Positions 53,725 to 55,902 of a stretch of DNA of 64,000 bases are shown in pieces. The position numbers were made by a program, and so were the translations under genes. The notes under the pieces were generated by a model, which was not told where the DNA came from, made no database searches, and worked only from the letters and a program-made list of their open reading frames with translations. The stretch comes from Ostrea edulis (Eukaryota), in the NCBI RefSeq assembly GCF_947568905.1, contig NC_079171.1, forward strand, positions 4,154,001 to 4,218,000, read 5' to 3'. The number at the start of each line of letters is the position of its first letter. Position 1 is the first letter of the stretch.

Positions 53725-55902
53725 ATGGCAGAAGCTTTTTTAAAGACATTAGAAGATTTCGAGCAAGAGTGGGTAGATTTGGGGAAAGAATTTGATGTGA
53801 TGTTTGATTCGGGGTAAGTACGTCTTCTTTTTTAAGATTTATCACTCATTAAGAGATCAGATTTAAGGACAGACAAGACGTTTCCGACATTTTCTCAATT
53901 TTTTTTTTCAATCTCCTTAAAATGAAGAGTTCTTTAGAAATAAATTTAGAATTTTGTAGTGTACCAATATTACCTTTAATTACGTCTTTGTCTGAATAGC
54001 ACAGTGGTTAAGACATCTGACCACTATACCGAAGACCCTGCGATCGATACCCCAAAACACAGGAATTTTTCTGTCTCACGTATTGTATGATATTACATTT
54101 TTACTTGCAACAACCAGGAACTACCAAAATATATCACTCTGAAATAGATCTGGTAAGGTAACCTCAGATTTTTTATGGAAACAAGATAGAATGCAGGTAA
54201 ACTGTATACAAAATATCACCAAAAATTATATACATATATATATTATTGAGGAACGTCTCGTCTGTCCTTAAAACACCCAGTTATAAGCATTTTTCCTAAA
54301 TTACAAATTTTATTCTTTTATTTTCATATCACAAATTTGTTATTTAATTTCTTTTACCAAAATATCTTTAAAATTCTATTTAACTAGGAATTCCCCCCAA
54401 GATCTCCAACTGATTGATCTAAGTTATGAAGAGCCGTTAAAGAGCGGGAAAAAGAGAAAACTGAGCGCGACGGAGGATTCGATAATTCTCTCTCTCTCTC
54501 TCTCTCTCGTGAACTAACTCAACTTCTTAAATTAGGCTTCAACATATGTACTGAGAACTAATCAAGCTCTACCCAGAGTAATCGTTCCTGCTACGCTCCA
54601 CTTATTCTCTACCCGGAGTTGTCGTTCCTGCTACGCTACCTCTGTCAACGTTTAAAAATTATTTTTTTTACTCCACGTGTAAATAATTTTTTCGTGGTTG
54701 ATGAATTGTAACTAAGAATCAGTTTTATGAAATATGAGGTAAACATATGGCGAGCAACTTATTGTTGCTCTAATTTCCGATACAAAAAAAGTATTTTTTC
54801 TAGATCCGCCAGTGTTTCCTAGTGTAATTTGAACTCAAAATCTGCGATTAAGTACAAATCAATGCGTCTTGTGTTACAGAAAGGCTTGGCATCTTCTTAG
54901 TATTGACATGTTTACATATATTGTTGCAACTAAAGTCGATAGCTTCATTTATTTGAACATATTTCGGATTACTTCCATTTTGTCAAGAATCTTGGGCAAA
55001 CCCGCTTTAAATAAACGTTGACAGAGGTGATGTCACGCAGCGTAAAACACCCTCTGGTGAGAGATTCTCTTTTAAATACAAGTGCTTCATTACATACATG
55101 ATTGTTGATTGACATGAAACTTAATATTTTAAATTTAATTTTCTTAAAGGAAAATGGCGAGACAAGGGTTTACTCAACAGAGGAGTCAGGAGGACCCGCT
55201 GTTAAATACATTTAGGTATAGTTGCCTTATTCAGTGAAGTAAAGAAAATGGTTTATTATAACTCATTTTAGCTTAAAGTCTTAAAATACTTAAAGACAAA
55301 TCTCTGTTAAACATAAAAGTATAAAAATTGATATTTGTTGAAAGATTACTTTGTTTTTTAGAAACTTTGTTTCATTCTTTTGTTACAGAAAGGAAAACAA
55401 TGATAAGTACGAGACGCTTGAAAAGCGCACCAAAACAAGATCAACTTTCACTCTGGTGATGTCTCCAGGGTATAGCCCAACGTCTCCAGGGTATAGCCCA
55501 ACGTCACCCAAACACAGCCCGGCGTCTCAAGAGTATACCCCAGCGTCACCCAAACACAGCCCGGCGTCTCAAGGGTACACACCAACGTCACCCAAATACA
55601 GCCCGGCGTCTCCAGAGTATAACCTTGCGTCACCTGAATATAGCCAGATGTCATCAGTGCAAGACCAATTCCTCCAATTCCTTCCGGCACCAGACCATAA
55701 ACCTTCCAGGAATACACCAACAGTGCTATCCTCTAACGAGTATACCCGCGCAAATTTAACCTTCACAGAAACCTCGGGGCAATATCCTCTTAAGGAGGAG
55801 CTGCGCGCGCTATGTGAACTTGTTGATTCGATTAGAGTAGACTTGCTACAGTCCTCCATGCTAGTCAACTATATTCAAGACTATATGAAAAACTGGAAGT
55901 GA
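53725..55902 (+). CDS. Predicted 3-exon, 222-aa protein with Pol II CTD-like heptads (53725-53813, 55150-55215, 55389-55902)
   Basis: Donors GG|GTAAGT and AG|GTATAG and acceptors TTCTTAAAG| and TTGTTACAG| are all phase 2 and in frame. Heptads [49 protein letters not shown]. Confidence 0.7.

What the first reader, a model, noticed from the sequence alone, without database searches (positions are those of the whole stretch)
53725..55902. Hidden 3-exon gene encoding an RNA polymerase II CTD mimic
Seen: about nine heptads in register ([63 protein letters not shown]). Two upstream exons join through canonical GT-AG phase-2 junctions into a 222-aa ORF without stops, just inside the right TIR. Established: YSPTSPS is the RPB1 CTD repeat, phosphorylated by CDK7/CDK9 and read by capping, splicing and termination factors. 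Inference: a CTD decoy or recruiter. It has no polymerase domains, so it is not an RPB1 fragment, and its C-terminal helix is shared with a heptad-free paralog at 25420.
Basis: partly seen in the sequence, partly recalled or inferred. Interest (0 to 1): 0.88.

Follow-up and report, generated by a model that had tools for sequence, protein, structure and literature searches.

The report
Oyster Polinton gene resembling polymerase tail
Virus-like mobile elements (Polintons) in oyster genomes carry a spliced gene whose protein repeats the seven-residue motif of the RNA polymerase II tail, so it may plug into the host's transcription machinery, although this copy looks damaged and no function has been tested.

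Summary
The nine heptads and the 222-codon three-exon frame are there as stated. The gene is the last one before the right terminus of an oyster Polinton/Maverick and belongs to a family with 20 matches in this genome and gene models in six oyster species. Exons and phase-2 junctions are conserved and under purifying selection (dN/dS 0.13-0.38 over whole exons). The three-exon model is incomplete: a fourth exon (from 54388, with a KKRK nuclear-localisation-like motif) is shared with 10 other copies, and only this copy lacks its splice donor. The 222-aa protein is therefore at best a skipping product of a decayed element. The conserved unit is YxPxSP (16 of 20 members; 0.4 expected). Heptad arrays occur in 5 of 20, in separate branches; other members repeat it at 9, 12, 14 or 18 residues. 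No heptad is an exact YSPTSPS, Ser7 is never present, and codons show no link to host RPB1. Best reading: a disordered nuclear regulator (acidic helix, NLS, CTD-like phosphosites, terminal helix) that converged on the CTD motif. CTD-like function about 50%; expression and binding are untested.

The parts
28280..56638 (.). Host element: Polinton/Maverick with AGTAGT...ACTACT ends; CARD-PC4, integrase-chromodomain, capsid-like ORF (frame broken near 33770), protease-like ORF, ATPase, and protein-primed PolB split by a Harbinger-type insertion. The two ends have no matching target-site duplication, so they may belong to two elements.
   Evidence: Pfam rve, Chromo, PC4, CARD, DNA_pol_B_2, weak Pox_A32; ends; same gene order in other copies. 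'Capsid' and 'protease' are recalled labels from position and sequence; Pfam gave no hit.
53725..53813 (+). Exon 1: ATG and acidic, hydrophobic helix (9 D/E, 2 K/R in 29 aa); phase-2 donor
   Evidence: donor at the same place in 9 of 10 copies; helix in the model of relative P0034; composition
54388..54490 (+). Acceptor present, donor missing in this copy; end coordinate approximate
   Evidence: 10 other copies, each ending in a phase-2 GT; 11 of 11 models; purifying selection
55150..55215 (+). Exon 2 (phase 2 on both sides); holds an in-frame ATG at 55154
   Evidence: homologue with donor in 10 of 13 copies; joined to the last exon in RefSeq model P0001 of a sister copy
55389..55902 (+). Last exon: conserved ENxxKYxxLEKR start, S/P/T-rich linker, terminal helix, stop
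   Evidence: phase-2 acceptor in 12 of 13 copies
55471..55659 (+). Nine 21-bp units coding CTD-like heptads (Y1 7/9, S/T2 8/9, P3 7/9, S5 9/9, P6 6/9, S7 0/9); one unit fewer in 2 of 4 DNA runs
   Evidence: 21 letters left out at 55459 in X2 and X3
55783..55899 (+). Conserved terminal amphipathic helix (about 38 aa, hydrophobic 3/4 spacing); family marker
   Evidence: 35-residue helix with pLDDT above 90 in P0034
56392..56638 (.). Right terminal repeat with 25-bp subrepeats, ending in ACTACT
25420..25936 (-). Last exon of a heptad-free paralogue, about 660 nt from another ACTACT terminus

Best explanation
A family of spliced accessory genes carried next to the right terminus of oyster Polintons. 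SHOWN: multi-exon coding gene under purifying selection; mostly disordered protein with an acidic N-terminal helix, a KRK basic motif, a short helical pair, a linker with one to twelve YxPxSP motifs, and a long terminal helix; tandem duplication has expanded the motif several times, most often in heptad register; this copy has lost one splice donor and sits in a decayed element. INFERRED: the protein enters the nucleus, self-associates or binds a partner through the terminal helix, and its YxPxSP serine (CTD Ser5 position) is phosphorylated by CDK7/CDK9-type kinases, giving a small CTD-like platform. With the acidic helix as an activation-domain-like module, I favour a recruiter that helps transcribe or process the element's own RNAs over a decoy (about 60:40), because the element depends on host Pol II. 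It has no recognised DNA-binding domain, so it would need a tether; the element's PC4-domain proteins are candidates (untested). The resemblance to RPB1 is most likely convergent.
For: YxPxSP in 16 of 20 members with a whole linker, against 0.41 (max 3) in 1000 shuffles; Tyr opens 30 of 43 distinct xxPxSP words while Tyr is 4.3% of linker residues (members are related, so not independent). Among 21 distinct DNA units from 4 copies pN is 0.00 at position 5, 0.05 at 3, 0.13 at 1 and 0.18 at 6, with pS 0.44-0.56; positions 2, 4, 7 have pN 0.35-0.43. ZNF768 shows the same rank order: S5 and P6, then Y1 and P3, little at T4 and S7 (PMC6344866, passages). Heptad arrays in Ostrea copies and in a Crassostrea model auto-named 'RPB1-like'; one clade for five array-bearing rows is rejected, p-AU 7e-5. 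Periods 7 and 14 dominate; 6 and 8 were not seen. NLS-like exon and acidic exon conserved.
Against: 15 of 20 members have no run of three heptads, 4 of 20 have no YxPxSP, and periods of 9, 12 and 18 occur, which breaks the heptad-pair unit thought to matter for CTD readers (PMC3335468, passages). 0 of 26 units has Ser7 and none is an exact YSPTSPS. The Ser5 invariance is partly by my choice of units: I left out three degenerate end units; with them Ser5 is 24 of 26. 21-bp satellites elsewhere in this genome read as heptad-like peptides without looking like genes. No transcript or biochemical evidence. In this copy the NLS-like exon has no donor.
Confidence: 0.5

Rival explanations
1. The gene is real, but YxPxSP is a general proline-directed phosphosite or degron (CDK, MAPK, DYRK, GSK3 type) that controls the protein's own stability or activity; repeats only add sites, and the CTD look is a by-product of duplicating a six-residue motif plus one residue.
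For: Most members manage with one or two motifs; periods 9, 12, 18 and 28 exist; position 7 is never Ser and positions 2 and 4 vary; Crassostrea P0005 has one motif among SP-rich sequence.
Against: The recalled consensus of these kinases (PxS/TP) does not need Tyr four residues before the serine, yet Tyr is there in 30 of 43 words; heptad register recurs on separate branches.
Confidence: 0.35
2. The array is a neutral 21-bp minisatellite tolerated in a disordered linker.
For: Unit number differs between individuals (2 of 4 DNA runs lack one unit) and between copies; unrelated 21-bp satellites give heptad-like readings at C9:35.59 Mb, C10:31.95 Mb and C7:29.17 Mb; this element is decayed.
Against: Synonymous change far exceeds replacement at positions 1, 3, 5, 6; the motif persists in array-free members across three oyster genera.
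Confidence: 0.08
3. The heptads are a captured piece of the host RPB1 CTD exon.
For: PF05001 hit; the last exon finds the host RPB1 CTD at C9:6.29 Mb.
Against: Same codon given same residue: 0.26 against host heptads (418 of 1591), no higher than host against host (0.29), versus 0.54 against sister copies; no Ser7; no other RPB1 sequence; arrays scattered over the tree. An ancient, saturated capture of one motif cannot be excluded.
Confidence: 0.04
4. It is a host gene family that merely lies beside Polintons.
For: It has introns, whereas no introns were seen in intact vertebrate Mavericks (PMC8097293, passages); PolB lay upstream in only 4 of 13 other copies within the flanks fetched.
Against: 11 of 14 copies have the ACTACT terminus within 1 kb downstream; the gene lies between the termini of a 21.4-kb element with a 6-bp target duplication at C8:4.89-4.91 Mb; block dN/dS (0.08-0.15) is like that of the core genes (0.13-0.18).
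Confidence: 0.03

Closest known systems
RPB1 C-terminal domain (Pfam PF05001)
   Same: Tandem heptads with Y1, S/T2, P3, S5, P6; Pfam cut-off passed; disordered.
   Different: Nine degenerate units against 43 counted in the host CTD stretch; no Ser7, no exact consensus unit; not attached to a polymerase; no codon-level kinship.
ZNF768 (placental mammals; PMC6344866, passages read)
   Same: A non-polymerase protein with a CTD-like heptad array that arose between conserved boxes, varies in length (10-20), is absent in relatives, and conserves S5/P6/Y1/P3 but not T4/S7.
   Different: ZNF768 is a host zinc-finger protein with Glu at position 2; here position 2 is mostly Ser/Thr, Glu/Lys/Gln sit at position 7, there is no zinc finger, and the gene rides on a mobile element.
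Polinton/Maverick (adintovirus) accessory genes, e.g. 'Oncoid' (PMC8502044, PMC8097293, passages read)
   Same: Lies in the accessory region beyond PolB, flanking the core modules; small protein defined by short linear motifs.
   Different: No LxCxE or CxxC motif seen; three or more introns, while no introns were reported in intact vertebrate elements; no heptad gene appeared in the passages read.
Adenovirus E1A and herpesvirus VP16-type acidic activators (recalled, no call)
   Same: Spliced, terminus-proximal, disordered motif hub (E1A); acidic helix with an F-x-x-hydrophobic-F word (VP16-like).
   Different: No sequence homology was tested or found; transcription runs towards the terminus; the resemblance is architectural only.
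CTD-mimicking regions of yeast Sen1 and Trf4 (PMC7110113, PMC4186968; search listing only)
   Same: Non-polymerase sequences described as CTD mimics.
   Different: Recalled as single short motifs for the Nrd1 CID in host proteins, not tandem heptad arrays.

Membership tests
Polinton/Maverick (host element) | Retroviral-type integrase and protein-primed PolB | tested here: met
   rve + Chromo at 31074-32240; DNA_pol_B_2 at 38391-40788, split in this copy
Polinton/Maverick (host element) | Terminal inverted repeats with (AGT)2//(ACT)2 ends | tested here: met
   28280 and 56638; motif as in PMC8097293
Polinton/Maverick (host element) | 6-bp target-site duplication | tested here: inconclusive
   Absent for the window's two ends and for the C8:33.5 Mb copy; present for the C8:4.89-4.91 Mb copy (1 of 3)
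Polinton/Maverick (host element) | Packaging ATPase, capsid and protease genes | tested here: inconclusive
   Pox_A32 hit below cut-off (E 0.0096); no Pfam hit for the capsid-like and protease-like ORFs, named from recall
Polinton/Maverick (host element) | Intronless genes | tested here: not met
   This accessory gene has conserved phase-2 introns; core ORFs are single frames
RPB1 (RNA polymerase II largest subunit) | Polymerase domains upstream of the CTD | tested here: not met
   Only PF05001 in the last exon, nothing in exons 1 and A; the real RPB1 CTD is on C9
CTD-like heptad array | Tandem seven-residue register with Y1, P3, S5, P6 | tested here: met
   for this copy; 5 of 20 family members
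CTD-like heptad array | Consensus YSPTSPS units with Ser7 | tested here: not met
   0 of 9 here, 0 of 26 in four copies
CTD-like heptad array | Phosphorylation by CDK7/CDK9 and binding of CTD readers | not testable with these tools
   Needs bench work
Adintovirus Oncoid | LxCxE motif with nearby CxxC | tested here: not met
   Not seen by eye in the translations and alignment A3; definition from PMC8502044

The most novel reading that the evidence does not exclude
Oyster Polintons encode a virus-type mimic of the RNA polymerase II CTD: a spliced nuclear protein that has repeatedly and independently amplified a YxPxSP site into heptad arrays, tuning their number like an accordion, and that uses them to draw CTD kinases and RNA-processing factors to the element's own genes or away from host genes.
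Probability: 0.35. Interest if true: 0.85.

Novelty: new variant of a known kind. Interest (0 to 1): 0.62.

Why it matters
Viruses are known to bind or deplete the Pol II CTD; my searches found no mobile element or virus that encodes its own CTD-like array (open-access library only). The family is a natural series from zero to twelve motifs at periods of 7, 9, 12, 14 and 18, so it allows a direct test of how much register and Ser7 matter for CTD readers, and of how CTD-like arrays arise. Independently of the heptads, a conserved multi-intron accessory gene in Polintons departs from the intronless picture and shows that ORF-based annotation of these elements misses genes.

Tried and rejected
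RNA evidence: no RNA holder listed; the four runs laid cover the introns and show no joint at the predicted junctions, so they behave as DNA; this says nothing on expression. I looked for spliced homologues from unannotated assemblies as indirect transcript evidence: among 26 clusters looked up, every spliced model with a named source came from a genome annotation. Homodimer prediction of the terminal helix: no answer, score 0.02. Fold search of the P0034 model (pTM 0.25): no match at E <= 0.001. ESM Atlas: no usable hit. Related loci: none in metagenome contigs with P0002, none in viral contigs with A2, so the genomic context in other oyster species is unchecked. A search with the N-terminal 105 aa of P0036 gave only 3 oyster proteins. 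Earlier scan notes: none. The first tree (52 columns, 7 rows dropped by my pattern) was poorly resolved; the second dropped 5 of 24 rows, and the group was named by repeat period after the first tree had been seen. Rejected: RPB1 pseudogene, chance splice join, single-copy minisatellite.

Full report
Observation. The five strict motifs are the only ones in the window and none appears in 30 shuffles. Pfam finds only PF05001. None of the nine is an exact YSPTSPS and none has Ser7, whereas 24 of 43 units counted in the host RPB1 CTD on C9 are exact.

Setting. The window is from an oyster: a sister copy 113 kb away encodes, letter for letter, a RefSeq protein named Ostrea edulis. The gene is the last one before the right ACTACT end (56638) of a Polinton with integrase, CARD-PC4, ATPase-like and PolB genes. 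This element is decayed: PolB is split by a Harbinger-type insertion, the capsid-like frame is broken where sister copies run through, and the ends share no target duplication. The terminal helix has 20 matches in the genome, 19 on C8. Eleven of 14 copies examined have the terminus motif within 1 kb downstream; 4 of 13 other copies have PolB upstream in the same arrangement within the flanks fetched, and one lies in a 21.4-kb element with a 6-bp target duplication (a 2-kb stretch inside it was not fetched). It is therefore a Polinton gene.

Gene structure. The exon-1 donor is at the same phase-2 position in 9 of 10 copies; 7 of 10 have an acceptor in front of this exon and so a further upstream exon, while this copy and its two nearest relatives start at MAE.F, as several database models do. 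Exon 2 with its donor is seen in 10 of 13 copies and the last acceptor in 12 of 13. Ten other copies have it between the same neighbours (individual E-values 2e-10 to 0.3; four look frameshifted), each ending in a phase-2 GT; in this copy the coding sequence runs into a CT microsatellite and that donor is absent, the next GT giving 121 nt, out of frame. All 11 database models that hold the exon-1 block also hold this one. One DNA run spans the place without a gap, so the state is not peculiar to the assembly. Which product, if any, is made is unknown.

Family and selection. A profile search of 1.84 billion representatives gave 74 hits. Of 26 clusters looked up, 17 carry an organism name and all are oysters: Ostrea edulis, Crassostrea gigas, angulata and virginica, Saccostrea echinata and cucullata. 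These are annotation models, not transcripts seen by me. Over whole exons dN/dS is 0.38 against the nearest copy (242 codons, Fisher p 2e-6) and 0.13 against the next (220 codons); conserved blocks, chosen by motif and so biased, give 0.15 and 0.08, beside 0.13-0.18 for integrase, ATPase and PolB. A model of relative P0034 is largely low-confidence, with helices for the acidic exon, the exon 2/3 junction and the last 35 residues.

The repeats. Of 20 members with a whole linker, 16 have YxPxSP (0.41 expected), 5 have three or more tandem heptads, others repeat the motif at 9, 12, 14, 18 or 28 residues, and 4 have none. A C7 copy has about 15 units of 14 residues. Among 21 distinct DNA units, replacement is low at positions 1, 3, 5 and 6 while synonymous change is high; three degenerate end units were left out, and with them Ser5 is 24 of 26. 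Two of four DNA runs have one unit fewer, in frame. Codon choice shows no tie to the host CTD (0.26 against a host-host baseline of 0.29; 0.54 within the family). Five array-bearing rows are rejected as one clade (p-AU 7e-5; 19 rows, 64 columns); repeated expansion is the simple reading, but one short ancestral array with losses, or recombination between elements, is not excluded. Against over-reading: unrelated 21-bp satellites in this genome also read as heptad-like peptides.

Mechanism. Shown: a selected, multi-exon Polinton gene with a conserved YxPxSP motif, often amplified in heptad register. [quoted passage not shown] I put CTD-like use at 0.5, a general proline-directed phosphosite at 0.35, and favour recruiter over decoy because the element needs Pol II for its own genes.

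Comparison. The nearest precedent is ZNF768, whose array shows the same conservation order and length variation (PMC6344866, passages). Intact vertebrate Mavericks were reported without introns (PMC8097293, passages); adintovirus 'Oncoid' accessory genes are defined by other motifs (PMC8502044, passages); PMC10748475 (passages) and PMC4217226 (passages) added nothing. Searches for Polinton + heptad + C-terminal domain (1 irrelevant paper), Polinton + Crassostrea + RNA polymerase II (0), and CTD-like or CTD-mimic terms (listings only) showed no description of this gene or of a virus-encoded heptad array. The library lacks most subscription papers, and I read no supplements or Repbase entries, where oyster Polinton ORFs may be listed.

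Verdict. A real and apparently undescribed spliced accessory gene family of oyster Polintons with convergent CTD-like repeats. Interest 0.62.

Noticed in passing
L071:8205 to L072 (G000:C1:84946205 onward, + strand): A single-copy 1158-codon frame, unrelated to this family, with about eight near-consensus heptads (two exact YSPTSPS; PF05001 above cut-off) followed by a very long RS/SR-rich repeat (305 dipeptides): a second non-RPB1 CTD-like array in this genome.
   Followed up: partly
window 49731-51560, - strand: A second probably spliced accessory gene, back to back with the heptad gene: cysteine-rich exon ending in GTAAGT near 51339, Thr-rich mucin-like exon 50636-50250, then a hydrophobic transmembrane-like exon; homologues at the same place in other Polinton copies.
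   Followed up: partly
window 41247-44493: Harbinger-type element (DDE_Tnp_4 nuclease, Myb/SANT) inserted in PolB, carrying an F-box ORF; Myb and F-box also lie side by side at C8:25.96 Mb.
   Followed up: no
window 29889-30908, 3348-4418, 4943-5389: These Polintons encode a CARD domain fused to two PC4 domains, and some a further PC4 protein, so transcription-cofactor look-alikes recur in the element.
   Followed up: no
window 56638 onward; also L033-L034: The right terminus abuts a second Polinton cut inside its capsid-like gene; nested or head-to-head Polintons recur on C8, where 19 of 20 family matches lie.
   Followed up: partly
L013/L016 (G000:C7:82.85 Mb): A family copy with about 15 repeats of a 14-residue unit (one CTD-like heptad alternating with a spacer heptad); it has a stop inside the array.
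   Followed up: partly
L073 (C9:35.59 Mb), L076 (C10:31.95 Mb), L017 (C7:29.17 Mb): 21-bp satellites that read as heptad-like peptides in one frame; a base rate for chance look-alikes.
   Followed up: partly
window 52272-52719 and 53385-53601: Related blocks with CGCG runs in opposite orientation between the two diverging accessory genes, conserved in sister copies; possibly a bidirectional promoter.
   Followed up: no
window 12282-15048: Tyrosine recombinase beside an SGNH/GDSL hydrolase ORF, as recalled for DIRS/Ngaro-type retroelements.
   Followed up: no
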